A stretch of DNA of 64,000 nt from the NCBI GenBank assembly GCA_000004985.1, contig GG738887.1, one strand, 5' to 3'. Below, one piece after another: positions 39,798-58,543 of the stretch (the first letter of the stretch is position 1; each line of letters starts with the position of its first letter). Position numbers and translations under genes: made by a program. The notes beneath the pieces are model-generated. The model was not told where the DNA came from and did not search any database. It was given only the letters and a program-made list of their open reading frames with translations. The stretch is from Naegleria gruberi (taxonomy: Eukaryota).

Positions 39798-39922
39798 GGC
39801 TTCTTGTTTCGTTTCGTTGTAGTGGTAATGATGGTGGTGATGACATTTTTTATTTGTTCTATTAATAGAAAAAGTTCATCATTTTATTTTAAAGTCTTTG
39901 ATCGGAAGAATTAGAAAAAAAA

Positions 39923-41374: not shown

Positions 41375-41422
41375 ACAACAATATTAATAATATTAATAAT
41401 AAATTATTTGTATATGATTAAT

Positions 41423-42808
41423 TTACAATAAATATTGAGAAATTCCAAAAATGATAAAAATTACCATAAAAGTGTAAATGAAATAATTTCCATTTCTAAT
41501 AGCACCATTAACACTAGTTCTATTCACAAATGATTGACCTGTTGTAGGTTGAATTGGTGTTGGATTTACAACATCACTTGATTTCTTTTGAGCCAAATAA
41601 AATTGTTTACAATTTCCATTTTCTCCTTGAGTTAATAAATATCCAAATGCAGGATAATAATAAGCATATCCAAATGAATCAATTGCTTTAACATAATATT
41701 TTCTACATGTTGCTGTAGAGTTGACTGAAGTTGTAAATTCAAAAGTTCCCATTCCATTTGCTGATTTATCATCAAATTGATTAGTGACAGGTAATGTCAT
41801 GGTATATCCCTTATCATCAATGAATAATTGAATGGATTTTAATTGTTTGGAATTGGTAATATCATATTTATGATAATAATTAGCTAAAAATGTTAATTGA
41901 CCAGATGTTAAAATTAAATGTGAAACTGAAACAATTGGATTTGAAATACCATGTGAACCTGATACAAAGTTTTGAGTCCAATAATCTGAATAATCAGCAT
42001 CTATATAACTTTAAATATTAGTAATTTAATATAAAACTTACTATTCAATTTAGGAAAATAACCAACTCCTAATAAAGAAAAAGAACCAAGAATATTAGCA
42101 CGATGTAAATCTGAATTAATCCATGTCATTGTAACATCGAGAGGAGTTGTTTGACCTGCTGCAATATTTTCAGCCATTCCAATCTGTTTATATATTTCAC
42201 ACGATAGACGAATAGTCATTTCACACACAAGTCAGAACTTAGTAAAAATGTTGAGCTCAATAACTTACATTATTCCTATTATAAAAAGTTGCAATTCTAA
42301 CAAAAGTATCTTCACCATTACAAGAAGCATGTGAAAAACAATTATTGAATGACATGTCATATGAATGATATCTGGCAGATTCCACAAGATTAAAATGTTC
42401 AAATAATGGAACTAGTCCACTAGCTGCCAAACTAACACCTGATTTAAACAAGGATCCAAATCTTGATTTAAATCCAACAGGTGACATTCTTGCCCAATTT
42501 GTTAACACGTGAACTGTTTTCTCAAAATAGAGAGAATAGAGATAGGTCTTTTCTGAACGTGAATTTGTACCTGCTTGTTGAGAACCATAATAAATCCATT
42601 GACCATTATCTAATGTTCCATTATTTTGAGTATTTCCTCCATCATTAACTGAAATGGATTGTTGAGTAAAGGTTTCGAATACATTTTCAGTTTTACTTGT
42701 ATCACTTATTATGGATGGATTGCAAGTAATGAATGATACACAGGACAAGATAACTAGGAATACAAATAATATTTTGATTATGAATGGAATGAAATGAAGA
42801 GTTGCCAT
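41423..42808 (-). CDS. Secreted, probably GPI-anchored hypothetical protein, 3 exons (possible CAP/SCP-like region, low confidence)
   Basis: Exons 42808..42269, 42183..42042 and 42000..41423. Introns are 85 nt (GTAAGT..AAACAG) and 41 nt (GTAAGT..TATAG), both in phase. Signal peptide 'MATLHFIPFIIKILFVFLVILSCVSFITC'. C-terminal hydrophobic tail 'YFIYTFMVIFIIFGISQYLL*'. Track ORFs 42257.., 42001.. and 41423.. are its three exons. Confidence 0.45.
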
Positions 42809-43105
42809 TTTTTTTCTGTTGGATAAATGAAAGGTTTCGTATTTATGATTGATAACTGATATTTCATTGTTCGATTTGGAGCTGAAAAGCCACAACAGAC
42901 TATTGAGGATGCCATTTATGAAATATCGTTCCAAATCAACCATTAAACCAATAGAATTGTTCATTAATTTTTACAACATTCTACTAGTATCAATGAATTG
43001 AATGAGACACAACATGTAATCTTTGTTAAAACCAATTTTCATAAAGATAGAATCTATCCAATATATCAATATATATATGTATGTGAGTGGTGTATGGTAT
43101 ATGGT

Positions 43106-44494
43106 TTATTGAGATGATGAAAATAATGAACCTAAACTTGATGAAGGTCCCTCATCTCTATTTGTTGAATTAAAGAAAATATCAGAAGTGTTAAATGGAT
43201 TACTACTACTCGTTTCTTGACTTGTAATTGGTCCATCTATTAAGGGAAATAGTCCATTTTCTTGTGAAGATAATATTCTAGATTGAGGTAAAGGAGAAAG
43301 TGGTGGTGTCAGGAATGGAGGAGGTGAAGATTGAATATATTCATAATTCTTATTGGTGGTTATGATTGGACTTTGTACAGTATTCGATTCAATATCATTT
43401 GTATTAAAATCATCAGATGATGGAAAATTGGAAGATTTCACAAGAATTGGACTTGATGCTCCTCCTTCATCCAAAACTATTTCATCTCTAGATTCATCCA
43501 ATAAATTAATAACAGTGGTAGTAGTAGTAATAGTGGAACTACCACTTGGTTTTGATACAGCAGCAGTTGCACTACTTGAATTTTTCATTGTATTCTTCAA
43601 AGTAGGAATTGATAAATTATTCTTGACAGCATTTGGTGAAATTTTAACCTTTTTCTTTGAATTAGATGAGGAAGATGTAGCTACACTATGTGAATCAGTA
43701 TCATCTTCTTCATCTTCTTCTTCTTCATCATTGGTTATTGAAGATCCCTTTCTCTTATTCTTAGTCTTTGCTAAACTTTTAAGATAAACTTCAGGTTTTG
43801 AAAGTAATCTGAATGGAGATGAAATCTTTGTTGCAACTTTTTTCATTACATCTCTATCTGTACAAGCTCTATATACATCAATTTCAAATCTAAATTTGGC
43901 ACTTGGTTTAAATTTAAAAACCTTTGCATTTTGCCAATATAATGTAATTTTCCAAACTCCATTTTCATAATCCTCTGTATGAGAATCAGTAATAACAGGT
44001 CTACTTTCAGATGAAAAACATTCAGTCCATTCTCCATTATCATAATTCTCTGTCAAGTCCTGTTCACTCGATATTAGCATAAATAATTTAATTTTACTAT
44101 AAAATCCATAATCAATTTTAGCCCATTCAAGTAATTCTTTTGTTGGTGTTAATGTAAAATCGTATTGATGAGTACGAAATAAACAATCACTTGGATAATT
44201 ATCTAAATTTTTGACTAGCCTACTTTTAACTTCAATAGTTATATCAGCTCCATTGTTTGGTTCATCTTTTGTTTGTGATGGTATGATAACTTGTCCAACA
44301 GAGAGTGGTACCCATGTTAATGGTACAATAACCTTCTTTTGATCATTTGTTGCTGCTGTTGTTGTTGAAGAAGAAGATGAACCTTTTGATGAAGAAGCCT
44401 CCGATGTTGATGACTTTTTAGACTTTTTTTCTGTCGTTTTATTATTCGTTGTTGTTGCTGATGTTGTTGATATCACTGATTTTTTCTTTCCCAT
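43106..44494 (-). CDS. Hypothetical Ser/Thr-rich protein with a central folded domain (462 aa)
   Basis: Long ATG ORF. The termini are low-complexity S/T. The central about 180 aa ('VPLTWVPLSVGQVIIPSQTKDEPNN...ITLYWQNAKVFKFKPSAKFRFEIDVYRACTD') look like a beta-sandwich. There is also an acidic tract 'DEEEEDEEDDTD'. Confidence 0.45.
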   Translation of the reverse strand: MGKKKSVISTTSATTTNNKTTEKKSKKSSTSEASSSKGSSSSSTTTAATNDQKKVIVPLTWVPLSVGQVIIPSQTKDEPNNGADITIEVKSRLVKNLDNYPSDCLFRTHQYDFTLTPTKELLEWAKIDYGFYSKIKLFMLISSEQDLTENYDNGEWTECFSSESRPVITDSHTEDYENGVWKITLYWQNAKVFKFKPSAKFRFEIDVYRACTDRDVMKKVATKISSPFRLLSKPEVYLKSLAKTKNKRKGSSITNDEEEEDEEDDTDSHSVATSSSSNSKKKVKISPNAVKNNLSIPTLKNTMKNSSSATAAVSKPSGSSTITTTTTVINLLDESRDEIVLDEGGASSPILVKSSNFPSSDDFNTNDIESNTVQSPIITTNKNYEYIQSSPPPFLTPPLSPLPQSRILSSQENGLFPLIDGPITSQETSSSNPFNTSDIFFNSTNRDEGPSSSLGSLFSSSQ

Positions 44495-44875
44495 TATTTA
44501 TTCTCTTTTCTTATTCTATTAAAGTCTTTAATAACAAACATTAAAGGCTTGTGTGAGTTTTCTTGATGATGTGCCTAAATTTTTTTTTACTTATTTTTAG
44601 ATGGAATTTAGCAAGAGATCGAAAATCTGCTGGAACTATTTAATTATCACAGTATTTAACAAATCTTTAAATTCACCATTTTCACTCACGCATCATACAC
44701 ATTTGATTAGGTTCTAAAAAGTTGTGCATGTTTGATCATTCAAAAATCAATTGAATTCATTAAATTTCATTGTATAACAGTATATCAATACCATATAACT
44801 ATTAACAATAATATTCTCACCATGATCATTCAATTATATAATTAATTAAAATTTCAAAATTATATTTATTCTTGT

Positions 44876-45880
44876 TCAATTACATATCAATATAATATCT
44901 GAAAATCTTAAATTATTAACTAAATTACAAGATAAATAATTAATTCTACTCGTATCAAAATAAATAATTGCAGTATCCAAATCTGAACAATAAAATTTTG
45001 GTATTAAATAAGGTCTTCTATCAATAAAACGATTTAAATCATCCATTTTAATTAAACCATATAAAGTAGAAAAATAATAACATTCCAATGTTTTTCTATC
45101 TTGAAACATGAATTGATTTTTGTATCCATAGAAATTTTCAATATCAAATTTAAAAAATAGAGCTGTTGGAAAGTAAACGAAATTTGGAGATGGCATTTCT
45201 TGTCCAATTGAAACAAATGCATTCATTCTTTTATAGACAAGTGTATTTCCTCTAAAAAATACCCAAGATACATTATTATCTATACATGTAAATAATTCAT
45301 AATTATATTTATATTTTGGATTATCTGCACTTAATCCACACATCCATAATGTTTTATCTTTTGATAATAAAACTGTATGATCATAATCAGCACATATATC
45401 AATTATTTCTCCTCCAGAAAATTTAATTTCAGTTAGTGTTTTTAATTGTTCTTCTAAATTACATCCAAATTGTTTTTGTCTTTTATCCTTTATATTAATA
45501 ATTATTATTATCATTATTTATATTTTAATTATTATAAATATTATTATTATTATATAATAAATTTATGAATATTAAAAGAAGAAAATACTAACTTGTTCAA
45601 TCCAAATGCGAATATTCTTCCCATAGTTGTTAAAAGTAAAAGAAATTTTCGACCAGTTTCAATTTTCTTAATATATTCAAGTTCCATTAAATTTAATCCT
45701 TTAATTTCATTACAAGAACCAGCTGATTTAATATGATACACTTTCCATCTCGAACAACAAATAAAATGATTTTCAGTAGTTGAAATATCTATAATTTTCT
45801 CTCCAATTTGAATTTTATGAATATTATTCTTTTCTATTAAAAAACATTCTCCATTTTCTATTCAATCCAGATTGAATGGT
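44876..45880 (-). CDS. RCC1-like repeat protein, multi-exon partial model
   Basis: 'GGEIIDICADYDHTVLLSKDKTLWMCG' and 'MGRIFAFGLNK' resemble RCC1 blades. The track ORFs 44876..45514 and 45550..45741 share a strand and are probably joined by a short intron. The 5' end near 45880 is not resolved. Confidence 0.3.
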
Positions 45881-46519
45881 ATCATTTAAAGTAATCTTTC
45901 TTTTCTTTTCAAACAATGCTGACTTGTAAAATGAATCCAAAGTAACCTAAGTCAACTTTCTTATAACCATATTATCAAAATATAACTCCTCTCAGAGAGA
46001 GATTCAAAAATAGCTAAAGCACCTCTTGTAATAAGAAATGTACTCTATTCATTGCCATGGTTATTTAAAAGACATACTAATTACAAACGTAGTGATTATA
46101 ATTTAGTTTTAATATTGTCCCAATGATTCATCATAAACTTTTTCAGGATCCTATTCTTGATTTGAATTCTATCCGGGTAGAATTTGACCGTCTTGTACCA
46201 TGTCTTCACTTGGACTAATTATTATAGGGTGCCGTAATGAAATGAAGAATAAGTAAATTCCAAAAACGATTCAATGTAAAAATCATTGGACCGGTTACGC
46301 AATAGAACTTTTCTACCTTATCAAATATTTTCAAGACTTTATTTCTTGTACGTAATGCAAAAATGTTAGGTGTTCCTCCGTATCATGTAAAATATTGCCG
46401 AGCAAGAATTTGTGTTGCAAACAATTTTATTTGTTATCAATTCATTTAAAACATGTTTTGCAAATATATCCAACTTTTTATTAATAAAAAAAAATAAGAT
46501 CAAAACAACAAAAGAAACC

Positions 46520-48007
46520 ATGAATCCATCACAAGAAGCAAGGACAACAATAGAAGAAGAACAGGATCCAGTGGTTGTCCATCTTGATTTATCAATCTTA
46601 AGTGGTACCCTAAAGAGTACCTTTGCCCACCAAACCAAATTGTTCCTGGAATGGTACAAGGAGGAGCAATTATTTTCCTTTACCAATTCCTTAATTATTC
46701 CATTGGAATATTGCACAAGACCTACAAAATCTGATGTTTGGGCTTTTAGATCTCCTATTCCAAGAGAGGGAATATTTATATTTGGAAAGGGAGAAACACT
46801 TTCTGATGCCGTATGTAACAGAGCAAATTGGTGGCAGGGTGGTGCAACAGTCTTGATAGACCCTTCAGCTCCTCACATGCGAGCTTCTATTCCTCGTCTA
46901 TCAACAAAAAGGCGAAAAAAGAAGAATAATAATAAGTGTGACCAGGTGCCAGGTGAAATTGACACTTTGGAAGTAATTTCACTTGAATTACGAAATGATC
47001 CGGAATATATGAAAGCTCGTGTCAAGGAAAATGGATTATTTCTCTACTACGCACATCCAGATATTCTTCAAAATCGAGATATTGTTCTTGAAGCCATAAG
47101 AAATAATGGAGCTGCTTTCAAGTTTCTTCCATTCAATCTGAGACAAGATGAAGAATTTGTAAAGAAAGCAGTAGAATTGAACGGAGATTCTTTTTACTAC
47201 CTAAATAGAGAATTTAGAAATAGACAGGATTTGTTTGAGACTTCCATATTCACAAGTGGAACGGCTATTCAAAGAGCTGGTGAAAATATTAGAAAGAGTC
47301 GCTGTTCCATCTTCAAATCTGTTTCAAATGACTGGAGAGCCATCTATTGGGTTGAAAAAAGCTACCCATTCTATTCCAATTTAATTGAATCGATTCTCAC
47401 TTCCAAAGTTAATGAATCTGAATTGCTCCACTCAAACTTGATTTCCTCGAAAGAACAACTTTTGAAGTTTCTTGATATTTCACACAAAGCTTTTTTCATG
47501 AGCACCAAAGAGATTACATTGGATGAACAGGTTATTGTAAAGGCAATGAACAAGAATATTTTGATTGCGAACCATCTCAGTCTTGATCATCTCACTATAG
47601 TATTGAATGATCATGCCCTTATAAAACAAATGATCCAACATCAAGGTGTGGAATGGAATGAAGATATGGCCGAATTAATTTTGAAAAATTCATCCTCTAC
47701 TGACATTGCCAGAGAATTAATAAGAAAATATCCTTGTTGTGCAAAGCATGTCTCCGGCAAATCTCCAATATTGTTGGACCCATTCATTATGAGAAATTTC
47801 GAACAACAATTCCTATTTTTGTACGGGCATTCTCGTTTTATTTTTGATAAGAATAATAGAGAATATTTGGAAAAATTAGGGTATTGCTTTCATGGAACTA
47901 ATTATTTGGATGCTTTGAAAGAAAGATTTGCACAATCCTATCCAGATCTTGTTATTCCATGGCATAGATTTGGAAATTTTGAAACATTTGCTCCACAATT
48001 GAACTAA
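46520..48007 (+). CDS. DUF4116 repeat protein (496 aa)
   Basis: 'NDPEYMKARVKENGLFLYYAHPDILQNRDIVLEAIRNNGAAFKFLPFNLRQDEEFVKKAVELNGDSFYYLNREFRNRQDLF' is a series of canonical DUF4116 repeats. The start is set to ATG 46520; the track start 46412 is a non-ATG codon. The antisense track ORF 46366..46716 is spurious. Confidence 0.55.
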   Translation: MNPSQEARTTIEEEQDPVVVHLDLSILSGTLKSTFAHQTKLFLEWYKEEQLFSFTNSLIIPLEYCTRPTKSDVWAFRSPIPREGIFIFGKGETLSDAVCNRANWWQGGATVLIDPSAPHMRASIPRLSTKRRKKKNNNKCDQVPGEIDTLEVISLELRNDPEYMKARVKENGLFLYYAHPDILQNRDIVLEAIRNNGAAFKFLPFNLRQDEEFVKKAVELNGDSFYYLNREFRNRQDLFETSIFTSGTAIQRAGENIRKSRCSIFKSVSNDWRAIYWVEKSYPFYSNLIESILTSKVNESELLHSNLISSKEQLLKFLDISHKAFFMSTKEITLDEQVIVKAMNKNILIANHLSLDHLTIVLNDHALIKQMIQHQGVEWNEDMAELILKNSSSTDIARELIRKYPCCAKHVSGKSPILLDPFIMRNFEQQFLFLYGHSRFIFDKNNREYLEKLGYCFHGTNYLDALKERFAQSYPDLVIPWHRFGNFETFAPQLN

Positions 48008-48153
48008 CAATAAATTCAATATTTCATACAAACTGAACCATTCTTTACCAAATATGTATTTTAAACAAATAAGTAATTGAATAATTAAGGTATGTTGTAG
48101 ATTGACTGAATATGGAAAAGAGTTTAGCAAACTTTTAAATTACATAAAATTCT

Positions 48154-48834
48154 TCATCTTACTAAAGCAACAGCCAACGTGGCCAATAAAGCAGCAATGA
48201 TAAATCCAACCACAAGTCCAACTGCAAAAAACACTACTGAATACTTGTGTGGGAGAGCACATTTTCTTCCCAATTCTTCACAATTACACAAAAAATCACA
48301 TTTCCCACCATCCAAATCAGCTTCAAGTTCTTCCTCTTGTGTCGTTTCAATAAATCTTTGTTTCTTCTTTTTTCTTTCTTTGGTTTCTTCCTTGATTGGA
48401 GGTGATTCGATCATTGGTTGAATAGTTGGTGTTTCGTCTGGAATAGTTTTTGCATTCTTTGGTGGTGAAATATCTCTTGAACAAACTAAAAGTTTCATTT
48501 CCTTTACCTGATTTTCTCTAAAGAATTCCAAAGTCGAATTGGAAATTTGATAAAACATCTTTTTCTTTTTTGATTTTAGTGGATTTTCACCAATTGGTGA
48601 AAGTAACCATTCATATTCAATGACATTTTCTTGTGTTTGCAATCCACTTTCTTCAATAACATTTTTAATATCCGAAACTTGATGAATTTGATAAACTCCT
48701 CTCAGAGATGTTCCATTAATTTTCTTTTTTGGATGATCAAAGAATAACCACAGTGGAGTTGTTACAGCAGTATTGATGGCTGTGGAGAAGGCAAGGGATC
48801 CCAAAGGTTGTGAAGTATTGTTGTTTTCAGCCAT
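48154..48834 (-). CDS. Tail-anchored membrane protein with a PH/GRAM-like N-terminal region and a Cys cluster
   Basis: 226 aa. The C-terminal 'VVFFAVGLVVGFIIAALLATLAVALVR*' is a single TM at the extreme C-terminus. There is a 'KKKKQR' basic stretch and a 'CDFLCNCEELGRKCA' Cys motif. Confidence 0.4.
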   Translation of the reverse strand: MAENNNTSQPLGSLAFSTAINTAVTTPLWLFFDHPKKKINGTSLRGVYQIHQVSDIKNVIEESGLQTQENVIEYEWLLSPIGENPLKSKKKKMFYQISNSTLEFFRENQVKEMKLLVCSRDISPPKNAKTIPDETPTIQPMIESPPIKEETKERKKKKQRFIETTQEEELEADLDGGKCDFLCNCEELGRKCALPHKYSVVFFAVGLVVGFIIAALLATLAVALVR

Positions 48835-49183
48835 TTTTTTATTGTTGTGCTAAAGATAAACAACTCAGGTGTCACGCTATTTAACAAGCCAAATATGTAA
48901 ATTTTGGTGGATATTGACATTATGGAGCTAATACAGACAGTAAGCGTCATAATTGGTTAATCCAATGTATTGATTGGGGTAGAATTCAAAAATTCATCAC
49001 TCAAATATGTTTTAATTGTGTTTTTGTTGAGATGTTTGTTTTGAGCAACATTTTCTCTGGTGTGATTCAAACCCACCATATACAAACCGCCACAATCCTC
49101 TCATTACAGTTACCATGATTAATAAGGTGAAACGTAGTTCTCTCTGTAAATCCTGCCGTATCAAAAAAAACTTGAACAAAATA

Positions 49184-49858
49184 ATGAAGGGCTCAATCCT
49201 CGTGTCCATTGTTCTTCTTCTCATTGTTAGCTTGCAATTGGTCTCAGCTTTTGGTGTTGCCGATAGCACTGTTGATAGAGTGAGAAAGACTCTTGTTGAA
49301 AAACAGGAACAACTCAAGAAAGTTCAAGATGGCATTCAATATCAAGAGGTTCTTCTCTCGGGATCTAAGAATTATGGAAATAAGGAAAGTCCAATAATGA
49401 TATCTTATAATCAAGAGAAGGAACAACAAATTTCCGAATTAAAACAACTTGAAAAGACAATCAATTTTGAAGTGGATTTCTTAAAGAAGAATTGGGAGGA
49501 AAGAGTTGTTATTGCCTTGTATCGTAATTTACTCAATAGAGCTCCAGAACCAACTGGATTGGCTCATTGGGCTAGTGTCTTGAGAGTGAATGATGTTAGA
49601 AAGACCATCAAAGCGATCGCCCATTCCGAAGAATACAAGCAAAAGAATATGAATACTCCAACTGAAACTGTCAAGAATGGTTATAGAATTATCTTGGGCA
49701 GAGAAGTTGAATCAGATAGTGTATTGGCTGAACAAGTTAAAAATGTGGAAAAGTTTGGACCTTTGGCTGTTATTGTTGCTTTGATTGATTCTGATGAATA
49801 TACTAAGGCATTTGGAGATTATTCAGTGCCTATTCCTGCTCAAATTACAAAGAAATAA
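49184..49858 (+). CDS. Secreted DUF4214-domain protein
   Basis: Signal peptide 'MKGSILVSIVLLLIVSLQLVSAFG'. 'VVIALYRNLLNRAPEPTGLAHWASVLRVNDVRKTIKAIAHSEEYK' matches the DUF4214 core (L-Y-x-x-L-L-x-R-x-P-[DE]-x-x-G-L-x-[HY]-W ... S-x-E-[FY]), a domain that is mostly bacterial. Confidence 0.5.
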   Translation: MKGSILVSIVLLLIVSLQLVSAFGVADSTVDRVRKTLVEKQEQLKKVQDGIQYQEVLLSGSKNYGNKESPIMISYNQEKEQQISELKQLEKTINFEVDFLKKNWEERVVIALYRNLLNRAPEPTGLAHWASVLRVNDVRKTIKAIAHSEEYKQKNMNTPTETVKNGYRIILGREVESDSVLAEQVKNVEKFGPLAVIVALIDSDEYTKAFGDYSVPIPAQITKK

Positions 49859-50234
49859 ACTCAGTTCAGAACATGTTTCAACATTGTTTAAGTAAATACA
49901 TCCAAGTAATTGTAATACATGATTTTGCAGGCAAGCTGTTAAGAATAAATGTATTCAACTGCACTATTATCCTTCAATTTTCACTTCCGTGGTCAAACAG
50001 AATTAGAAGACATCCAATATCAACTTAGCTTCCGGAGTTTAAACTTGTTGTCCAGAACAACTTCAATTCCCATAATATCCACTTAGCTTGACTAATGACA
50101 CATGACTTCCTCATATCCTAGATATTTCCAATGTGGAGTTGGTTTATTGTAAAAGGTTCGAGGATATTTCCATTTAGTTTCATTTAAATATTTCAGATGT
50201 TTGTATTTGTAATAATTTTCTCATTCAAAAAAAA

Positions 50235-50921
50235 ATGTTTAAACAAGCAATTCTTTCAGTCTTGATCGTTGCAATCATTGCTTCCTCTGCCTATGCTTCT
50301 CCTATTTTTTCTTTCGTTAAACAATTCGAAAGTGCCAACAAGAGATCTCCAACCTCTTCAAACATCTGTTGTTTGCCAAATGTCTTCTCCATGAAGGGTG
50401 TTTTCAATCAAGTTTCCATCGTTGCCAATAACAGTACCTTACAACCAGTCGATGGTGGTTTCAACTTTGTTGTTGATTACAATGCTGGTAAAATTAGACA
50501 AGATATCACTTACACAGTTGATGGAGCTGTCAATACCTATACTAATTGGGACTTTAAGATTAGTTCTTCTATTACTGTTTCCTATGATTTACAAAGTGGC
50601 AAATGTCATTGTCATAAGGTTACAGATTTCAATCAATGGGAGGCATACTGTATTCCAAATACTGGAACCGTTACCAAAGCAAAGATTGGTTCCTATGATG
50701 CTTTGAAGATTGTCAATACTCAAAATGGTGCAATTGGTACTTTCTGGACATTCAGAGAACCACAAATGGCCAATGATAAGTGTTGGATTTTGAATACCTT
50801 GGCTGTTTCTTCAACTGCTTCTCTAGAGCAAATGTATTATGATATGGTTGAAAAGGTTGATTCAAATGTTTTCACTGTCCCTGCTTCTTGTCCATCAATT
50901 AATACTTGTTTGTCTCAATAA
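50235..50921 (+). CDS. Secreted Cys-containing hypothetical protein (228 aa)
   Basis: Signal peptide 'MFKQAILSVLIVAIIASSAYA'. Eight or more Cys residues (CC..., CHC, C...C), no TM, and beta-rich composition. Confidence 0.45.
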   Translation: MFKQAILSVLIVAIIASSAYASPIFSFVKQFESANKRSPTSSNICCLPNVFSMKGVFNQVSIVANNSTLQPVDGGFNFVVDYNAGKIRQDITYTVDGAVNTYTNWDFKISSSITVSYDLQSGKCHCHKVTDFNQWEAYCIPNTGTVTKAKIGSYDALKIVNTQNGAIGTFWTFREPQMANDKCWILNTLAVSSTASLEQMYYDMVEKVDSNVFTVPASCPSINTCLSQ

Positions 50922-51380
50922 ATTATCATAACATGAGTTGTGTTAATTGATACAATTTCTACACAATAGTTCCTTGTTTTGGAAAAGGAAAAAGAAAGGA
51001 GAATCTCTAATACAACAAGAATAAATTTGGACAATTTGAAACGTTGTTACACTATGGCATGTTTGTGTTTGTAATTATGGCCGGATAGAAATGGTTTACA
51101 GAATGCATATTTAACATGCTAGTTGATGATATTTATAACATGTGAATTATGCTCTCCTTAATGGGATATTTGGAAAGTTGAACAATATGTGATGTGAATG
51201 TGTTTCTTGTAAAATATAATCGATTTCCTATCAAATGGTTTTCTGTAGTGGAGCTAATAATTTCACTTCGCACATGCTCCCAACATGAAGGCGCAACTTT
51301 CAAATGTCAACACGTCAAAACGAATTACCTTTTAAACTGTTTCAGTAACTTCAGTTTCACTCCAAAACAAAAAAGAAAAA

Positions 51381-52795
51381 ATGTTTCTTAGTAATTCAGC
51401 AGGTGATGCTATTGCCCCAAGACACTTTGGTGTCAATAGCTCTTTCCAAAGCAAAACCTTTCACATGAAGTTGACCATTATTGCTGCCAAAGGATTGATT
51501 AACACGGATTCAGGAAAGAATGGTAAGTTTTTATTCGAAATTCATCATTTTAATAGATTATTCTTATTCGAAATGTAGGTGATGTTTCGGATCCATATTG
51601 TGTTGCTTGGTTGGGAGGTAAAAAGAAGGAACAATTCAAAACTCGTGTCATTGATGATAATCTGAATCCAGTGTGGGACGAAACTTTTGAGATTCCTCTC
51701 GAGCATAATCCCGAGCAATATGTTCTAATTTGTCAATTATATGATAAGGACACTTTCACATCAGATGATTCTTTAGGATTTGCAGCAGTTTCACTTTCCA
51801 TCCTAAAGCTCAAAGAAGGAGAACCATTTGAAATGTGGTTGAATTTACAAGGAGTTCCAAAAGGATCATTGAATGTACGAATTGAACCTTTGGATTTTTC
51901 TATCAATGATGGATTTGTCTCAAGTAATTCAGAGGAAATACCACAAATTGATCTGACAAACTTTTTGAAGGAATATAAGAATGAGAAGGGAGGAGGATTT
52001 TCCACACGAGGCAGAAGTTTGGCATCTATTTTGAGTGGAAATATTTCAGAAAAGGAATCACATCGTTTGGATAAGTTGTTTGGTGTTGAATATTTGGAGG
52101 ATGTTTATGATAGTTTGAGAACTGGAGATGTGTTACTTCACTCTGGAAAGGGAAATTTCTCTAAAGCTATTCAATTGGGATTTTCTTCGACTTGGTCTCA
52201 CTTATCTGTGATTATTAGAAATCCACCGAAAGAAGTATTGGATGCATACAATGTTAAAGTTGATCATTCATCTCATTATTCAACTGTTTTTGTTGCTGAA
52301 TCAGAAACTGATACAGTTGATAATAAGGAAGGAGGTGGAATTCAATTGGTTGAGTTGAGAAGATGGTTTTTGGATTACTTGACAAGAGATCCAACTGATT
52401 TGTGTTGTCTGAGAAGATTAAATATTCCATCAATGGGAGAAAGACCTAAGGAAGAGAATATTACAGAACATTTCCCATCCCTTGTTGAATATTTAAAGAG
52501 ATGCACAACCAAAAAATATGAAACATCAAAATCTGAATTGTTGAAATGTGTCATTAAGAGAAATACTCAATCAAATGATTCAAATGTTTTCTGTTCAGAG
52601 TTTGTGGCAGAATGTTATACTAAAATGGGTCTTTTACCACAAAATACAATCACATGCAACTATGGTCCACGAGACTTTAGTCAGGAATCCAATTTAGTTA
52701 ACACAGTTCTATTGAAAGGAGCCAATTTGACACCAGAAAAGAGAGTGAGAGTCAAGGAATGGGACAAGGAGCACGATTGGGCCATTCATCCTTAA
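51381..52795 (+). CDS. C2-domain protein with a C-terminal LRAT/NlpC-P60-like His...Cys domain, 2 exons
   Basis: Exon 1 is 51381..51522. The intron is 51523..51578 (GTAAGT...TGTAG, phase 1). Exon 2 is 51579..52795. The junction gives 'KLTIIAAKGLINTDSGKNG|DVSDPYCVAWLGGKKKEQFKTRVIDDNLNPVWDETFEIP', a textbook C2 beta-sandwich start. The C-terminal half contains 'STWSHLSVII' (His) and 'NVFCSEFVAECY' (Cys-x-E-F-V, compare LRAT NCEHFV). Confidence 0.6.
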
Positions 52796-52922
52796 AATCT
52801 CTAGTAAATTACAGGTGCACAGTTTCACGCCAACTTTAATTCTTCCGTGTGACACGTTTTTGTAACTAAGAAAATGAAACATTGAACTTGAACTCATAAG
52901 TTCGCTTAAATTGTCAAAAAAA

Positions 52923-53900
52923 ATGAAGCAAAAGAGGGCTAACCAATCACCATCGTCATTTCGTTGGTATGAAACATGTGGAGAAGCCTTTTTTACACAA
53001 TTAATCATATCCTTCCTTGGTGATGCACCCCGAGAGTTAAAATCACTGGCACAAACATGTAGATTTATTTATCAAATTTACTCTCAACATTGCGATGAGT
53101 TTTGGAAGAATTTACTATTAAAGAAATATCATGATTTAAATCGAGAGGTATTGGAGATGGAGAAAATGAAAGGAAAACTAATGATGGCATATTATCAATT
53201 GAGGTATTTTGAAAATAATTTGGATAAGGTTTCTGAACAGTTATTGAACTGCACTGGAATAGATCCAAAGAACATGAATAATTCATATCATGATCCAAGA
53301 CCTTGTTTTATTTGTGCATCTTCTTATGGATATTATTATGCTCAGGGATTTATAACCCAGTTGATTAGCTCTTTCTTTTTAGAGGAATATGATCCATGCA
53401 CAATAGATTCTTATAGATATAATTTGGAAATGGATAATTCTTCAAAGAGAATGATTTCAATGTATCCTATTTCATTGTATGAGGAATACCCAATACTACT
53501 CGACAATCATATAAATATGAGTGATGGAATGATTTTTTCTCTGGTTATTAGGAACGATTTCAATCCCAATAACTTTACCTCAGAATTTGCAGGATTTACT
53601 CCTTACTACAATCAATTAGCCAAATCAGTTTTTTTTAATAGATATATTATTACAATTGCAATTCATTACAAGGATATTGTGGAAGATTCATTCAAGAAAA
53701 TTGTGGAGGAGGAATTGAGAAAGTTTTTAAAGCAAAATTATGATTTTAGAAATTATCTGATTATGGAATGCAATCTTTTTAATAGAGAACAAGTGCTGAG
53801 AACAACTGTGGAGTCTGTGAAAAGATTTAGATTTATTGACACCAACCAATTCTTGAAATACATGATTCAGTCAGACAAGAAGAAGTGCTCCTTAATGTAA
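52923..53900 (+). CDS. F-box-like hypothetical protein
   Basis: N-terminal 'FFTQLIISFLGDAPRELKSLAQTCRFIYQIYSQHCDEFWKNLL' is F-box-like. The start is set to ATG 52923. Confidence 0.4.
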   Translation: MKQKRANQSPSSFRWYETCGEAFFTQLIISFLGDAPRELKSLAQTCRFIYQIYSQHCDEFWKNLLLKKYHDLNREVLEMEKMKGKLMMAYYQLRYFENNLDKVSEQLLNCTGIDPKNMNNSYHDPRPCFICASSYGYYYAQGFITQLISSFFLEEYDPCTIDSYRYNLEMDNSSKRMISMYPISLYEEYPILLDNHINMSDGMIFSLVIRNDFNPNNFTSEFAGFTPYYNQLAKSVFFNRYIITIAIHYKDIVEDSFKKIVEEELRKFLKQNYDFRNYLIMECNLFNREQVLRTTVESVKRFRFIDTNQFLKYMIQSDKKKCSLM

Positions 53901-54324
53901 ATCAATTTACTTGAATATTTACTTCTAGCGATTGGAAATTAATATCAACCAAATCCCTTACAAAATACTCGAATTTTAGTGTGAAAATATCATACACACA
54001 TCTCATGGGAGAATAATGTCTCGTGGTATTGGCTAATAAAGTGTGAAATAACAATAGAATAGGTTGGATTTATTTCAAAGAAAATCATTTAATTCCACAC
54101 AGTTTTTAGTTCTTCTCTTTATTTGAAGTGCTATCTTTTAACCGCCAAAGCACTTGTAACGGTCAACCGCTTCAATATTTAAATTTTTAAAAAAATTGCG
54201 CAAAAATTTAGTTAGGCGGTTAAATTGAAAATTTTGCTGCTTTTTAAAGAGAAACGGAAAGCTACCCTCTAGATTTTTATTGAACAATTTGTTCTCCTCA
54301 CTCTGAAGAAGAACAACAACAAGT

Positions 54325-57195
54325 ATGAAAAAGAAAACCAATTCCCAACCCTATGGTGGTGGGCAAAAGAAGAACAATAATAACAATAACCGCAACAATA
54401 ACAAACAAAAACCATCCAATACAACAACACAACAGCAAACAACAACATCATCTTCAATAATTCAGCAACAACAACAAGCTAATGCGACTGCTACCACTAC
54501 TCCTATTGTTAACAATAATACCACAACTGCCACTCAACAAAATTCCACAACTACTGCTAGTAGCAGCAATGTTAACAAACAAGAAGGTAAAGCATCAGTT
54601 CTTATTGGTGATAAACCATTGGATCCATATTTGACTGAATTATTCTCTGTCTTGATGAGTGGAACAAAAGCTTCCAATGAAATCCCATCTTCCAAGGAAT
54701 TTGACTTTCTCACTTCACATTTTCCACAATTTAGAGGTGCTATGGATGAGTCTGCAAATGCTTTGAAGTTAGCATTATCTTCATTCCTTGGTCAAAAGAA
54801 CAAGTCCAATTCTGTTATGGATGACCCAGAAGTAATGTTTGAATCAACAGTTGATTTACTTGACCAATATTTTGAAAATGTAGATATGGCTCTTGATGAA
54901 ATGGATATGGAATCTAACGCTGATAGTGTCGGAGTGAATCCTTCACAAAGTAATTCAGGTTCTTCTGACCAAACCCTTAAATCAATGAGCAGACCCCAAT
55001 TGAAATGGAACGATGTTGATAACAGAAACATGCCGTTCGTACCAAATTTGAAATCAAAACCTAACGCATTTGTTGCCTCACTCGAAAAGTCAATGAAGAT
55101 TGGTTCCTTAGATGATGATGATGAAGAAATGAGTGGTGGTACTAAAAAGATGGGTGTAACCTTTGAACATAGCACTTTACCTCCATTCCCATTCCGTTTT
55201 GGAGTAGGTAATGGTGTTGGTGGTGAAACAACTCGCCAAAGTTCTCCTCATCCATACTTGCCTGAATTGTTGAGTCTTCAATTTATGAAATCACAAACGA
55301 CGCCTCCTGAGAAGGCTATTTCTTATGCTCCTCTAGAAAACTCACCTTGCACATGGATTAGCACTGTGGAAGATCTTCACAAGCTAGCTACAATCTTGGA
55401 AGGCCAAGATGCTTTCGCAATAGATTTGGAACAACACAGTTATCGTTCATTCCAAGGTTTTGTTTGCCTTATGCAAATTTCTACAAGAAGTGAAGACTTC
55501 CTCATAGATACTCTTGAATTGAGACAACACATGCATATTCTTAATTCCTCCTTCACACATCCTAAGATTGTTAAGGTTATGCATGGTTCCGATTGTGATA
55601 TTTTGTGGCTGCAGAGAGATTTTGCAATTTATTGTGTTAACTTGTTTGATACCGGTCAGGCTTGTAGAACTCTTGCTTTACCTGGTTGTTCTCTTGCCTA
55701 CTTGCTTAAGCACTATTGCGGAATTGATGCTGATAAAAAGTATCAATTGGCTGATTGGCGAGTGAGACCTCTCCCAAGTGAAATGGTAAAATATGCTAGA
55801 GAAGATACTCACTATCTATTATACATTTATGATAGATTGAGACAAGATATTTTCAACACCAAACCCAACACTTCTACTGTTTCTGGATTTGAAAGAATGG
55901 AAGAAGTTTTGGTAAGATCTAAGGAATTGTGTATGAGAAGATATGAAAAGGAACTCTTCTCAGAAACTTCATATCTTTCCCTTATCAAATTCTCTAGAGG
56001 ATGTACAGCATCCATTAGTGAAAATGTTATTCGAGTTTTATTCAAGTGGAGAGATACTGTAGCTAGAAAAGATGACGAAAGTATTCGTTACGTTTTACCT
56101 GATCACATGATTCTCTCAATAGCCCAAGAAGCTCCAACTGAGGTTAGTCAATTGTTAAGTTGTTGTAACCCAGTTCCTAAACTTGTCAGAAGAGATGCTA
56201 AAATTATTGTTGACTTGATAACCAAGGCATTACAAAGTCGTGATATGCCAGAGCCAACATTCTCCACACCATCTAAGATCCCTGATGAAAGCTATATTAA
56301 TCAACATGCCAAACCATCTTTTGAACTTGAATCACCAATTGTTAATCCACATTACAAGACTCCTTCAAGAATGAGTCCTGTTATGAATACTGATGATTTA
56401 TATAACATTGCTGGATGGATTGAATCCAAGAATTATTATCCATCATCTTCAATGTCCAAACTTACATTTTCTGAGGAGGAAGATGAAGTTTTGGAAACCA
56501 TTGAAAATATCAGAAAACACTCCAATGTAAATGTCACTCCAAGCAAGAAATCATCTCTTTTCTTCCCTCCTAGCAACAGTAGCTTTAACAAAGATAAGGT
56601 ATCACAAATCATGTCTTCATTCTCTCTAGGTAATGGACAAACATCCAACAAGCAACAAAACGATGAAGATACATCCATGATGGACAGTAGTAATATCCTT
56701 ACAGACGATCCAACATTGGATGATGCTATGGATACATCCTCTAGCTTTATTAACACTCCTATTAATAACACAAAGAACCCATCTGCACGTGTGACTCCAG
56801 AAGAAGAGCGTGTTCCATTGAGTCTCAACGAAATTTACAAACTTTCTCAAAAGAATAGAAAGAAGAACAAGCAAAAGAAGAAGCTCAAACAAGATTCTGT
56901 CTCTGATCCATCTCCAGCTTATGATGGTGATGATAATGATGATGAAGACATTGTTATTCATCAACCAACTATTCCAACACCATCAGAATCAATTCCAACT
57001 CAAAAACCAGTCGATTTTATGAAAAAGATTGGTTGGTTGGGAGCTGAAGAAGAATTATCTGCTTCAGAAGAAGAAAAGGAAGAAGAAGTTAATGCTTCAG
57101 TTGCTGTTAAGGTTCCAAACTATAGCAAACCAAACATGAATGTTCGTAAAAAACCATCTAAAAATTATGTGCAGAATAGGCAACATAAATACTAA
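54325..57195 (+). CDS. rrp6: Exosome 3'-5' exoribonuclease RRP6 / PM-Scl100 (PMC2NT + DEDDy exonuclease + HRDC)
   Basis: 'FAIDLEQHSYRSFQGFVCLMQISTRSEDFLIDTL' (Exo I/II), 'YAREDTHYLLYIYDRL' (Exo III, the Y of DEDDy), the following HRDC-like segment, and the N-terminal PMC2NT-like helix bundle. A single 956-aa ORF with Q/N/T-rich termini. Confidence 0.8.
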   Translation: MKKKTNSQPYGGGQKKNNNNNNRNNNKQKPSNTTTQQQTTTSSSIIQQQQQANATATTTPIVNNNTTTATQQNSTTTASSSNVNKQEGKASVLIGDKPLDPYLTELFSVLMSGTKASNEIPSSKEFDFLTSHFPQFRGAMDESANALKLALSSFLGQKNKSNSVMDDPEVMFESTVDLLDQYFENVDMALDEMDMESNADSVGVNPSQSNSGSSDQTLKSMSRPQLKWNDVDNRNMPFVPNLKSKPNAFVASLEKSMKIGSLDDDDEEMSGGTKKMGVTFEHSTLPPFPFRFGVGNGVGGETTRQSSPHPYLPELLSLQFMKSQTTPPEKAISYAPLENSPCTWISTVEDLHKLATILEGQDAFAIDLEQHSYRSFQGFVCLMQISTRSEDFLIDTLELRQHMHILNSSFTHPKIVKVMHGSDCDILWLQRDFAIYCVNLFDTGQACRTLALPGCSLAYLLKHYCGIDADKKYQLADWRVRPLPSEMVKYAREDTHYLLYIYDRLRQDIFNTKPNTSTVSGFERMEEVLVRSKELCMRRYEKELFSETSYLSLIKFSRGCTASISENVIRVLFKWRDTVARKDDESIRYVLPDHMILSIAQEAPTEVSQLLSCCNPVPKLVRRDAKIIVDLITKALQSRDMPEPTFSTPSKIPDESYINQHAKPSFELESPIVNPHYKTPSRMSPVMNTDDLYNIAGWIESKNYYPSSSMSKLTFSEEEDEVLETIENIRKHSNVNVTPSKKSSLFFPPSNSSFNKDKVSQIMSSFSLGNGQTSNKQQNDEDTSMMDSSNILTDDPTLDDAMDTSSSFINTPINNTKNPSARVTPEEERVPLSLNEIYKLSQKNRKKNKQKKKLKQDSVSDPSPAYDGDDNDDEDIVIHQPTIPTPSESIPTQKPVDFMKKIGWLGAEEELSASEEEKEEEVNASVAVKVPNYSKPNMNVRKKPSKNYVQNRQHKY

Positions 57196-57259
57196 ACCTA
57201 AGCTTATTAAAATGGAAGTTTCCTATTTAGTTGATCTCTATTTTTCAAAATCAAAAACA

Positions 57260-57898
57260 ATGAAACAACGAATAATCATAATATTAATTGTATTAGTAAT
57301 TTTCTCCTTAGGACTGGTAACTTCTTCAAGATCTAACTCTACAAACCTTAGAGGCACTCGGGCTGCTCAAACAACATGTGAGGATTATCAAGTTTCTTTC
57401 TATGTGGACGATGATTCAACAAGCCAACAGCAGTGCGGAGAATGTATACCAGGATCATCAGGAATCGACACTAAAGAGTTTTGTCAAATTGATGAATACT
57501 GTACAGACGAAGGAAAATGTGAAAGCATTACAAAACAACCCTTATTTATGACAACGTGTCCTAGAGAGCTAGGTAAAACCTTAACAAAAGATGGATTTTG
57601 TGGACCAGGTTTGAGATGTATCCAACATAAATGTATTCAATGTGTGACAGGTATGATGGATTATGCTGATGGTAAAATCTGTATTGATTCAGTGTGGACA
57701 TTCAACAATTTAAAGATTGGATTTTATCATCCTACTGTCATCTTTCTAACATCTTTTGTAGTTCTAGTAGGATTCAACATGTCAATTGATTGTTGTTTCG
57801 ATATTGTATATTCCATTCGAAAAAAGAAGAGAAAGCAAATTGAGGAAAGATACAGGATATTCTATCAATATATTCGTACAAGAAGTAATAAATTATAA
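57260..57898 (+). CDS. Type I membrane protein with a Cys-rich ectodomain
   Basis: Signal peptide 'MKQRIIIILIVLVIFSLGLVTS'. Twelve or more ectodomain Cys. TM 'VIFLTSFVVLVGFNMSI' followed by a basic tail 'RKKKRKQ'. The start is set to ATG 57260. Confidence 0.45.
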   Translation: MKQRIIIILIVLVIFSLGLVTSSRSNSTNLRGTRAAQTTCEDYQVSFYVDDDSTSQQQCGECIPGSSGIDTKEFCQIDEYCTDEGKCESITKQPLFMTTCPRELGKTLTKDGFCGPGLRCIQHKCIQCVTGMMDYADGKICIDSVWTFNNLKIGFYHPTVIFLTSFVVLVGFNMSIDCCFDIVYSIRKKKRKQIEERYRIFYQYIRTRSNKL

Positions 57899-58330: not shown

Positions 58331-58543
58331 TGTTTAATGTTGTTCTATTTTTTTTGATTTCTATTTTTAAACTTTAAATTACTAAATTTTATACAAAGAA
58401 TAGCTTCTATGCTCATACTTTTCATTCAATGGATTGAATTGTCATTTTGAATAAATATTTCTATTCACTTTCTTCAATTTAAAGTAGCATCTTAATTTAT
58501 GCAACGGTTCCCGCCAAAAATTTGAATTAAAAAATTTTAAAAA

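What the first reader, a model, noticed from the sequence alone, without database searches (positions are those of the whole stretch)
49184..49858. Secreted DUF4214 protein, a predominantly bacterial domain in an amoebozoan gene
The DUF4214 core motif is well preserved and attached to a eukaryotic signal peptide. The gene is intronless, and its upstream region (49012-49150) differs in composition from the rest of the locus. This is a candidate horizontally acquired gene.
Basis: partly seen in the sequence, partly recalled or inferred. Interest (0 to 1): 0.5.

Follow-up and report, generated by a model that had tools for sequence, protein, structure and literature searches.

The report
Bacterial-type DUF4214 gene in Naegleria
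A small Naegleria gruberi gene encodes a secretory-pathway protein whose only recognisable part is a bacterial DUF4214 / phycobilisome-linker-fold domain; it was probably acquired from a bacterium, one wild relative carries a deleted copy, and it is a plausible but fairly ordinary gene-transfer candidate of unknown function.

Summary
The ORF at 49184-49858 (+) is real. It is 100% identical to a 224-aa "predicted protein" of Naegleria gruberi, which is a heterolobosean, not an amoebozoan. The protein has three parts: a hydrophobic signal peptide or anchor (aa 1-22), an orphan helical hairpin (aa 23-99), and one complete two-lobed DUF4214 / phycobilisome-linker-fold domain (aa 100-217). Pfam scores PF00427 at E=1.5e-17 and PF13946 at E=1.1e-8. 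The AlphaFold model superposes on solved linker domains at 2.0-2.2 Å.

An exhaustive HMMER search of 1.84 billion representatives found no relative above about 40% identity. Every hit aligns only to the domain. The nearest relatives are small secreted single-domain proteins of non-photosynthetic bacteria. Naegleria fowleri, N. lovaniensis, Willaertia and Acrasis are in the database, as a positive control showed, and none has a homolog.

Horizontal acquisition from bacteria is therefore the most economical reading. The tree is unresolved, however, and codon usage is fully native. Being intronless is not distinctive here. The "odd" upstream composition is not real.

New here: an environmental N. 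gruberi-like contig carries a clean 609-bp deletion that removes the promoter-proximal DNA and codons 1-156. The gene is therefore dispensable in that genotype. Function is inferred only: a non-catalytic surface or glycan-binding module. Interest is modest.

The parts
49184..49858 (+). Complete single-exon CDS (224 aa plus TAA). It equals the N. gruberi 'predicted protein' P0001. It lies between NAEGRDRAFT_70874 and NAEGRDRAFT_70876, so it is presumably NAEGRDRAFT_70875 (inference).
49184..49249 (+). aa 1-22: N-terminal hydrophobic signal peptide, or possibly an uncleaved signal anchor. The predicted cleavage site is VSA|FG.
   Evidence: hydropathy and the -3/-1 rule; helix 3-22. No dedicated predictor was available.
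49250..49480 (+). aa 23-99: orphan charged, Q/N-rich region predicted as a long helical hairpin (helices 27-61 and 70-117). It has no homolog anywhere.
   Evidence: almost all best-matching stretches start at aa 95 or later, none before aa 76; pLDDT 60-84
49481..49834 (+). aa 100-217: one complete two-lobed DUF4214 / phycobilisome-linker-fold domain (Pfam PF00427 type, Gene3D 1.10.3130.20 superfamily).
   Evidence: pLDDT above 90; target-normalised TM-score 0.72-0.78, rmsd 2.0-2.2 Å
49505..49645 (+). aa 108-154: first lobe, a canonical DUF4214 motif (VVIALYRNLLNRAPEPTGLAHW...IAHSEEY).
   Evidence: half-domain profile scores (DUF4214 group 48 bits, cyanobacterial group 11 bits)
49676..49834 (+). 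aa 165-217: second lobe. It lacks the DPxGLxxW motif and ends in the linker-type motif IDSDEYTKAFGDYSVP.
49115..49117 (+). Alternative in-frame upstream ATG. It would add 23 basic residues ahead of the hydrophobic segment. The annotated start is 49184.
   Evidence: (the annotated model is 224 aa)
49045..49653 (.). 609-bp segment absent from an environmental N. gruberi-like contig (L029). It covers 139 bp of promoter-proximal DNA plus codons 1-156. The breakpoints share 1 nt of microhomology.

Best explanation
This is a lineage-restricted N. gruberi gene whose only conserved module is a bacterial-type DUF4214 / phycobilisome-linker-fold domain.

Origin. It was most likely acquired horizontally from a non-photosynthetic bacterium that encoded a small secreted single-module protein of this kind. 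The transfer would have happened after N. gruberi split from the N. fowleri / N. lovaniensis lineage. It was long enough ago for codon usage to become native and for a new 77-residue helical N-terminal region to evolve.

Mechanism (inferred). The hydrophobic N-terminus directs the protein into the secretory pathway. The helical hairpin acts as a stalk or oligomerisation element. The compact all-helical domain, which has no catalytic signature, acts as a binding or anchoring module for a surface polymer. That polymer could be the amoeba's own surface or cyst material, or the envelope polysaccharide of bacterial prey. This follows exported bacterial DUF4214 proteins, which are thought to be surface-anchoring; one of them, Psh, is reported to bind LPS O-antigen.

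Dispensability. The gene is not essential: a closely related wild genotype carries a promoter-plus-5'-half deletion.
For: Shown:
- Domain identity and fold.
- No relative above 40% identity among 1.84e9 representatives, and hits confined to aa ~76-224, mostly ~95-220.
- The nearest hits, P0116 (40%, 79 bits) and P0110 (39%, 74 bits), are bacterial. There is an AGGAG Shine-Dalgarno sequence before the P0110 start. P0018 and P0182 sit in bacterial gene neighbourhoods. A related subfamily includes a Vicinamibacterales protein.
- Profiles built without the query score 86 bits (non-cyanobacterial single-module group) and 83 bits (tandem DUF4214 group) against 42 bits (cyanobacterial linkers). The result is robust to size-matched subsampling.
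- Sister-taxon proteomes are present in the database but lack the protein.
- The gene lies on a 508-kb Naegleria scaffold between eukaryotic genes: Rrp6, a C2-domain protein, an LRR-DSP phosphatase and a DUF4116 protein.
- GC3 and codon usage are native.
- A deletion allele exists in L029.

Inferred for function:
- Signal sequence.
- Bacterial relatives are also exported.
- Literature: DUF4214 as a likely surface-anchoring domain in segmented filamentous bacteria (SFB) (PMC12780176). S-layer or anchored-enzyme proposals (PMC11970703). The RTX-DUF4214 protein Psh binds O-antigen (bioRxiv 10.64898/2026.09.02.748959).
Against: - No supported phylogenetic nesting. The NJ sister of the query changes between bootstrap replicates.
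- A cyanobacterial-type linker is nearly as similar by BLASTP (37%, 58 bits).
- There is no compositional trace of transfer.
- Absence from sister species was tested only against annotated proteomes, not against genome DNA.
- Eukaryotic DUF4214 proteins outside the top hits were not systematically surveyed.
- No expression, secretion or binding data were available.
- The 17-19-residue hydrophobic core is long for a cleaved signal peptide.
- The deletion allele rests on a single metagenome contig.
- The allele is also compatible with the gene having no function at all.
Confidence: 0.55

Rival explanations
1. Neutral passenger or decaying orphan. The ORF is intact in strain NEG-M but has no current function. 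It is a transferred domain on its way to loss.
For: - An N. gruberi-like environmental genotype has lost the promoter-proximal DNA and codons 1-156. The remaining frame is closed by a stop 5 codons upstream of the junction and has no in-frame ATG.
- The protein is a singleton at both 90% and 50% clustering.
- There are no paralogs in the window.
Against: - A 224-codon ORF in 34%-GC DNA is very unlikely to stay open without selection or recent origin.
- All family-invariant residues (Y, L, L, L, R, G, S, G, P) are retained.
- The domain folds with pLDDT above 90.
- Codon usage is host-adapted.
Confidence: 0.2
2. Acquired through a giant virus (Nucleocytoviricota) rather than directly from a bacterium.
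For: - The best BFVD structural match is a DUF4214 protein of Hyperionvirus sp. (E=1.5e-4).
- Further DUF4214 proteins occur in ChoanoV1 and in tailed phages.
- From general knowledge, not tested here: giant viruses related to klosneuviruses infect Naegleria.
Against: - Identity to the viral protein is only 26% with a poor TM-score.
- There were no hits in IMG/VR by pattern plus tblastn, nor in phage records.
- Bacterial hits are closer at 39-40%.
- No viral-type genes flank the locus.
Confidence: 0.1
3. Derived from a genuine phycobilisome linker (CpcC, CpcG or ApcE REP domain) of a cyanobacterium or alga, for example from prey.
For: - Pfam's best model is PBS_linker_poly, and all PDB sequence and fold matches are phycobilisome linkers.
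- The second lobe and the motif IDSDEY..AFG...VP are very like cyanobacterial linkers (37% identity to P0031).
- The only GTDB genomes recovered by motif scan were cyanobacterial.
Against: - The PDB contains no non-photosynthetic members, so that result is biased.
- The first lobe has the DUF4214 signature R-x-P-E-P-x-G-L-x-x-W rather than the linker signature LGN....ESER. It scores 11 bits against the cyanobacterial profile and 42-48 bits against the others.
- The whole domain scores 42 bits against the cyanobacterial profile and 86 bits against the non-cyanobacterial one.
- The exported location matches the non-photosynthetic bacterial subfamily.
Confidence: 0.08
4. An ancient eukaryotic or vertically inherited gene that was lost, or diverged beyond recognition, in all other sampled eukaryotes.
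For: - Native codon usage and a eukaryote-specific N-terminal region.
- The very long branch prevents any firm placement.
Against: - It requires many independent losses.
- N. fowleri, N. lovaniensis, Willaertia and Acrasis are searchable and lack it.
- The domain family is overwhelmingly bacterial in every search.
Confidence: 0.07

Closest known systems
Small secreted single-module DUF4214 / PBS-linker-like proteins of non-photosynthetic bacteria. Examples are metagenomic P0116 and P0110, P0018, P0182, and the Acidobacteriota family that includes HKH70017.1 from Vicinamibacterales, annotated 'phycobilisome rod-core linker polypeptide'.
   Same: - N-terminal export signal followed by one two-lobed module.
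- DUF4214-type first lobe and a C-terminal FGDxxVP motif.
- Highest pairwise identity (39-40%) and highest profile score (86 bits).
   Different: - The Naegleria protein inserts a 77-aa helical hairpin between the signal and the domain.
- Its second lobe has lost the DPxGLxxW motif.
- It has no cysteines, whereas the Acidobacterial family has a conserved QQPCT...RYC pair.
- It has no EF-hand tail.
- Function is unknown for the bacterial proteins too.
Phycobilisome linker Pfam00427 domain (CpcC, CpcG, ApcE REP; for example PDB 3nph, 3pru, 3ohw, 2l8v).
   Same: - Same fold: target-normalised TM-score 0.72-0.78, rmsd about 2 Å over about 120 residues.
- Above the Pfam gathering score.
- Shared second-lobe motif.
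   Different: - Linkers are cytoplasmic or stromal and sit inside phycobiliprotein rings. From established knowledge, Naegleria has no plastid or phycobiliproteins.
- This protein has an export signal.
- The first lobe is not linker-like.
Exported multidomain bacterial DUF4214 proteins. Examples are Psh (RTX-DUF4214, P. putida), surface proteins of segmented filamentous bacteria (SFB), and S-layer-associated proteins.
   Same: Extracytoplasmic location and a helical DUF4214 module proposed to anchor or bind to cell-surface polymers.
   Different: - No RTX repeats, catalytic domains or tandem DUF4214 arrays are present here.
- The binding role is a proposal in those papers, not an established property of the domain.
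Giant-virus DUF4214 proteins (Hyperionvirus, ChoanoV1).
   Same: They show that the domain circulates in viruses of heterotrophic protists.
   Different: Only 26% identity, a different architecture and a longer protein (417 aa).

Membership tests
Pfam PF13946 DUF4214 | HMM match above the gathering score | tested here: met
   35.5 bits against a cut-off of 23.2, E=1.1e-8, aa 108-154
Pfam PF00427 PBS_linker_poly (sequence and fold family) | HMM match above the gathering score over the whole domain | tested here: met
   64.3 bits against 28.7, E=1.5e-17. Single-domain PDB chains such as 2l8v_A align to aa 100-217.
Pfam PF00427 PBS_linker_poly (sequence and fold family) | All-helical linker-domain fold | tested here: met
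   The AF2 domain has pLDDT above 90. The top 50 Foldseek PDB hits are all linker domains, with target-normalised TM-score 0.72-0.78 and rmsd 2.0-2.2 Å.
Functional phycobilisome linker (CpcC, CpcG, ApcE type) | Linker-type first lobe (VLGN....ESERL signature) | tested here: not met
   The first half scores 11.4 bits on the cyanobacterial profile and 42-48 bits on the non-cyanobacterial profiles. The motif present is LNRAPEPTGLAHW.
Functional phycobilisome linker (CpcC, CpcG, ApcE type) | Cytoplasmic or stromal protein without an export signal, in an organism with phycobiliproteins | tested here: not met
   A strong N-terminal signal sequence is present. The host is Naegleria gruberi, a plastid-less heterotroph by established knowledge. 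Phycobiliprotein genes were not searched genome-wide.
Bacterial secreted single-module DUF4214 / PBS-linker-like subfamily | Export signal plus exactly one two-lobed module ending in FGxxVP | tested here: met
   Alignments A1 and A3. Best profile score of 86 bits with the query excluded.
Bacterial secreted single-module DUF4214 / PBS-linker-like subfamily | Conserved cysteine pair (QQPCT ... RYC) of the Acidobacterial branch | tested here: not met
   The Naegleria protein has no cysteine. It is therefore not a member of that branch.
Psh-like RTX-DUF4214 proteins | N-terminal RTX calcium-binding repeats and T1SS export | tested here: not met
   No RTX or hemolysin-type Pfam hit. The N-terminal region is a helical hairpin.
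Horizontally acquired gene (operational criteria) | Absent from sister taxa that are demonstrably searchable | tested here: met
   Rrp6 control: N. lovaniensis 62%, N. fowleri 65%, Willaertia 59%, Acrasis 44%. The target finds only itself and bacterial-type hits of 40% identity or less. Proteomes only were searched, not genome DNA.
Horizontally acquired gene (operational criteria) | Nested with support inside a donor clade | tested here: inconclusive
   NJ on 94 domains and 112 columns. The sister group is unstable across 200 bootstraps: DUF4214 class 88, FGxxVP class 69, mixed 43. No maximum-likelihood software was available.
Horizontally acquired gene (operational criteria) | Physically integrated among host genes (not contamination) | tested here: met
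   508,457-bp scaffold. The flanking models NAEGRDRAFT_70874 and NAEGRDRAFT_70876 lie within 350-380 bp. Eukaryotic neighbours are present. The same junctions are seen in an independent environmental contig.
Horizontally acquired gene (operational criteria) | Deviant composition or codon usage | tested here: not met
   GC 0.363 and GC3 0.307 against 0.24-0.32 in neighbours. The codon log-likelihood of -0.95 is within the neighbours' range. Upstream DNA is not unusual.

The most novel reading that the evidence does not exclude
A heterotrophic, bacterivorous amoeboflagellate has domesticated a phycobilisome-linker-fold (DUF4214) module. The module is displayed on a coiled-coil stalk in the secretory pathway as a receptor or opsonin for bacterial surface polysaccharide or for its own cyst or surface matrix. 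This would be the first assigned function for this fold in a non-photosynthetic eukaryote. The gene would also be presence/absence polymorphic in natural N. gruberi populations.
Probability: 0.1. Interest if true: 0.55.

Novelty: new member of a known kind. Interest (0 to 1): 0.3.

Why it matters
If the transfer reading holds, this adds one more bacterial gene to the known set of prokaryote-derived genes in Naegleria. It also shows that the phycobilisome-linker / DUF4214 fold can be taken up by a non-photosynthetic eukaryote and routed to the secretory pathway.

It flags a practical annotation problem. PF00427 hits outside cyanobacteria and algae are not light-harvesting linkers. An example is 'phycobilisome rod-core linker' in Vicinamibacterales.

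The deletion allele gives a natural knockout for testing whether the gene does anything.

None of this touches a long-standing open question. The function of DUF4214 remains unknown in bacteria as well.

Tried and rejected
- Word-indexed homolog search with the single protein found only itself.
- The exact-sequence contig look-up had no record for the target.
- tblastn within the window found no paralog.
- IMG/VR, phage and plasmid searches found nothing.
- The GTDB scan with the single protein found nothing.
With a 3-sequence alignment it returned only cyanobacterial linkers at 31-36% identity.
- The JGI metagenome scan gave nothing closer than 35% identity.
- The afdb50 fold library was unavailable, so eukaryotic structural homologs with taxon labels could not be listed.
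- The first tree attempt with Biopython timed out. The numpy neighbour-joining tree ran but did not resolve placement.
- The repeat search found no flanking repeats or mobile-element ends around the gene.
- The literature search for Naegleria plus phycobilisome linker found no papers.
- Rejected: contamination or mis-assembly, because of the eukaryotic neighbours and the independent environmental contig.
- Rejected: a true phycobilisome linker, because of the first-lobe signature and the export signal.
- Rejected: the 'odd upstream composition' claim, because the stretch is statistically unremarkable.

Full report
WHAT IS THERE. Window 49184-49858 (+) is an uninterrupted ATG-to-TAA ORF of 224 codons. 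With the local base composition a codon is a stop with probability 0.074. About 0.004 stop-free stretches of 224 codons are therefore expected in the six frames of the non-gap window. The translation is 100% identical over its full length to a 224-aa NCBI/UniProt entry, 'predicted protein [Naegleria gruberi]', which lies on a 508,457-bp scaffold. The flanking ORFs 48154-48834 (-) and 50235-50921 (+) are exactly NAEGRDRAFT_70874 (D2VPI7) and NAEGRDRAFT_70876 (D2VPI9) on the same scaffold. The target is therefore presumably NAEGRDRAFT_70875, which is my inference. The organism is a heterolobosean (Discoba), not an amoebozoan.

ANATOMY.
- aa 1-22 (MKGSILVSIVLLLIVSLQLVSA|FG) form a very hydrophobic N-terminal segment. 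The 19-mer Kyte-Doolittle mean is 2.73, and small residues sit at positions -3 and -1. It is the only hydrophobic segment in the protein. It predicts entry into the secretory pathway. The core is long enough that an uncleaved signal anchor cannot be excluded. An in-frame ATG at 49115 would add 23 basic residues in front.
- aa 23-99 are charged and Q/N-rich, and they match nothing. In the exhaustive HMMER search almost every best-matching stretch starts at aa 95 or later, and none starts before aa 76. AlphaFold2 models this region as a helical hairpin (helices 27-61 and 70-117, pLDDT 60-84). The second helix runs into the domain.
- aa 100-217 form one compact all-helical domain with pLDDT above 90.

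DOMAIN MATCHES. Pfam gives PBS_linker_poly PF00427 at E=1.5e-17 (64.3 bits, cut-off 28.7). It gives DUF4214 PF13946 at E=1.1e-8 (35.5 bits, cut-off 23.2). The DUF4214 match covers only aa 108-154. All PDB sequence hits are phycobilisome linkers, and single-domain chains align to aa 100-217. All top 50 Foldseek hits are Pfam00427 domains, with target-normalised TM-score 0.72-0.78 and rmsd 2.0-2.2 Å. The domain is thus a full two-lobed module. The first lobe carries the canonical DUF4214 signature (YRNLLNRAPEPTGLAHW...HSEEY). The second lobe has lost that signature and ends in the linker-type motif IDSDEYTKAFGDYSVP.

- The upstream stretch 49012-49150 is 35.3% GC. All 139-nt windows between 46 and 64 kb average 33.7 +/- 4.3%, and 41% of them are as GC-rich or richer. 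C content is likewise ordinary.
- The gene's GC (0.363), GC3 (0.307) and codon-usage likelihood fall inside the range of its neighbours at 46-62 kb.
- Single-exon structure is shared by several neighbours whose ORFs equal their gene models.
- Neither composition nor intronlessness therefore argues for foreign origin.
- No repeats or mobile-element ends flank the gene.

RELATIVES. phmmer against 1.84 billion cluster representatives gave 2599 hits at E<=1e-3. Only the protein itself scored better than 1e-30, and the high total scores belong to multi-repeat proteins. Ranked by best single domain, the nearest are two short metagenomic proteins. P0116 (125 aa) gives BLASTP 40% identity and 79 bits. 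P0110 (259 aa) gives 39% and 74 bits.

Evidence that the nearest relatives are bacterial:
- The P0110 contig has an AGGAG Shine-Dalgarno sequence 7 nt before the start and a closely following downstream gene.
- P0018 and P0182 lie in long contigs among ordinary bacterial genes with no photosynthesis context.
- A profile search recovered a tight family of 150-225-aa proteins built as signal peptide plus one module, some with EF-hands. One member is a Vicinamibacterales (Acidobacteriota) protein annotated 'phycobilisome rod-core linker polypeptide'.

HMMs built from three groups of hits, without the query, scored the Naegleria domain as follows:
- Non-cyanobacterial single-module group: 86 bits.
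- Tandem-DUF4214 group: 83 bits.
- Cyanobacterial linkers: 42 bits.

Size-matched subsamples gave 60-91 bits for the first two groups. The first lobe alone scored 42, 48 and 11 bits on the three profiles. The second lobe alone scored 41, 28 and 30 bits.

The protein is therefore closest to exported bacterial modules, not to genuine light-harvesting linkers. A cyanobacterial-type linker (P0031) still reaches 37% identity and 58 bits. Neighbour joining on 94 non-redundant domains over 112 columns does not place the query stably. Motif scans of GTDB genomes and JGI metagenomes found nothing closer than 36% identity. IMG/VR, phage and plasmid searches were negative. The best viral structural match is a DUF4214 protein of the giant virus Hyperionvirus, at 26% identity and E=1.5e-4.

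SISTER SPECIES. As a positive control, the neighbouring Rrp6-like gene (54325-57195) was searched in the same collection. It returned orthologs from N. lovaniensis (62%), N. fowleri (65%), Willaertia magna (59%), Acrasis kona (44%) and Percolomonas, followed by eukaryotes generally. Those proteomes are therefore searchable, yet the target retrieves none of them. This is absence from annotated proteomes. Genome DNA of those species could not be searched here.

A SECOND GENOTYPE WITH A DELETION. The look-ups revealed that an ENA metagenome assembly (ERZ929261, run ERR1078381) contains N. gruberi-like DNA. Contig L028 equals window 54303-62421 at 99.4% identity. Contig L029 (1215 bp) carries the ortholog of NAEGRDRAFT_70874, intact at 224 aa against 226 aa. 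It matches window 47959-49044 at 96.7% identity and then continues directly into window 49653-49783 at 99.2%.

Relative to the window, 609 bp are missing, with 1 nt of microhomology at the junction. The missing piece comprises 139 bp upstream of the ATG plus codons 1-156. The residual frame is closed by a stop five codons before the junction and has no in-frame ATG.

A k-mer assembly error is unlikely, because the window has no long repeat at the breakpoints. It remains single-contig evidence. Taken at face value it shows three things:
- The gene sits at the same locus in an independent isolate, so it is not an assembly contaminant.
- It predates the split of these two genotypes.
- It can be lost without obvious cost.

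INTERPRETATION. The most economical origin is horizontal acquisition of a bacterial exported DUF4214 / linker-fold module in the N. gruberi lineage. Amelioration and the addition of a novel helical N-terminal region would have followed. The signal peptide may have come with the gene, since bacterial relatives have one too.

I put 0.55 on this combined reading. The weak points are the unresolved tree, the low identity and the proteome-only test of absence.

Rivals:
- A functionless decaying passenger: 0.2, and compatible with the same origin.
- Giant-virus-mediated transfer: 0.1.
- Descent from a true cyanobacterial or algal linker: 0.08.
- Vertical inheritance with massive loss: 0.07.

MECHANISM (INFERRED, NOT SHOWN). 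The protein has no catalytic signature, no cysteines and no N-glycosylation sequons. In phycobilisomes this fold is a pure protein-binding plug. In non-photosynthetic bacteria DUF4214 occurs in exported and surface proteins:
- It is regarded as a likely surface-anchoring domain in segmented filamentous bacteria (SFB) (PMC12780176).
- It is linked to S-layer-anchored enzymes (PMC11970703).
- In the RTX-DUF4214 protein Psh it is proposed to stabilise binding to LPS O-antigen (bioRxiv 10.64898/2026.09.02.748959). That preprint also notes that Gene3D 1.10.3130.20 groups DUF4214 with the phycobilisome-linker superfamily.

My best guess is therefore a secreted or membrane-tethered, possibly oligomeric, non-enzymatic binding module. 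Its target would be a surface polymer, either of the amoeba itself or of bacterial prey.

VERDICT. The transfer idea is reasonable and not refuted, but it is not demonstrated phylogenetically. The protein is already in public databases with both Pfam domains precomputed. No paper linking Naegleria to this fold was found. It is a new member of a known kind: a prokaryote-derived orphan domain gene in a phagotrophic protist. Interest is modest at about 0.3. The deletion allele is the most useful new handle.

Noticed in passing
L029 (ENA ERZ929261 contig k127_288068) against window 47959-49783; also L028 against window 54303-62421: An environmental metagenome assembly contains N. gruberi-like DNA that is 97-99% identical to the window. 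In it, 609 bp (window 49045-49653) are cleanly deleted, removing the target gene's promoter-proximal DNA and codons 1-156. The divergently transcribed neighbour is intact.
   Followed up: yes
window 11700-22448 and 32308-45514 against 23724-31559 and 46412-62396: There is strong compositional mosaicism among ORFs on one scaffold. GC3 is 0.05-0.20 in the first two blocks and 0.24-0.32 in the others. ORFs from both kinds of block are exact N. gruberi gene models (for example NAEGRDRAFT_70855 and NAEGRDRAFT_70872), so this is not contamination.
   Followed up: partly
window 1515-10780: An assembly gap of 9266 N lies here. The long 'ORFs' listed across it (1427-10864 and 1498-10821) are artefacts of the N run.
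   Followed up: yes
window 49027-49057 and 50192-50222: An imperfect 31-nt direct repeat (74% identity; TTGAGATGTTTGTTTTGAGCAACATTTTCTC) lies upstream of both the target gene and the next gene (NAEGRDRAFT_70876). It could be a shared promoter element or a chance match. The left breakpoint of the deletion allele (49044/49045) falls inside the first copy.
   Followed up: no
window 50235-50921 (+): The downstream neighbour NAEGRDRAFT_70876 (228 aa) also starts with a signal-peptide-like segment (MFKQAILSVLIVAIIASSAYA). It has no Pfam family and only insignificant PDB similarity (S-layer 8q1o, E=0.013). It is a singleton at 90% clustering. Two adjacent orphan secretory-type genes therefore sit side by side.
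   Followed up: partly
Proteins P0161-P0185 and P0227; loci L005, L006, L008: Soil bacteria, including Vicinamibacterales, carry a coherent family of proteins built as signal peptide, then QQPCT, then one PF00427/PF13946 module, then VPGSSVRYC, sometimes with a C-terminal EF-hand pair. Some are auto-annotated 'phycobilisome rod-core linker'. That is almost certainly a misnomer in non-photosynthetic organisms.
   Followed up: partly
window 46412-48007 (+): The upstream neighbour carries three DUF4116 repeats (E=7e-27), another poorly understood repeat family.
   Followed up: no
window 49115-49183: The in-frame upstream ATG at 49115 would give a 247-aa product with a 23-residue basic N-terminal extension (MINKVKRSSLCKSCRIKKNLNKI) ahead of the hydrophobic segment. 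The true start codon is untested.
   Followed up: no
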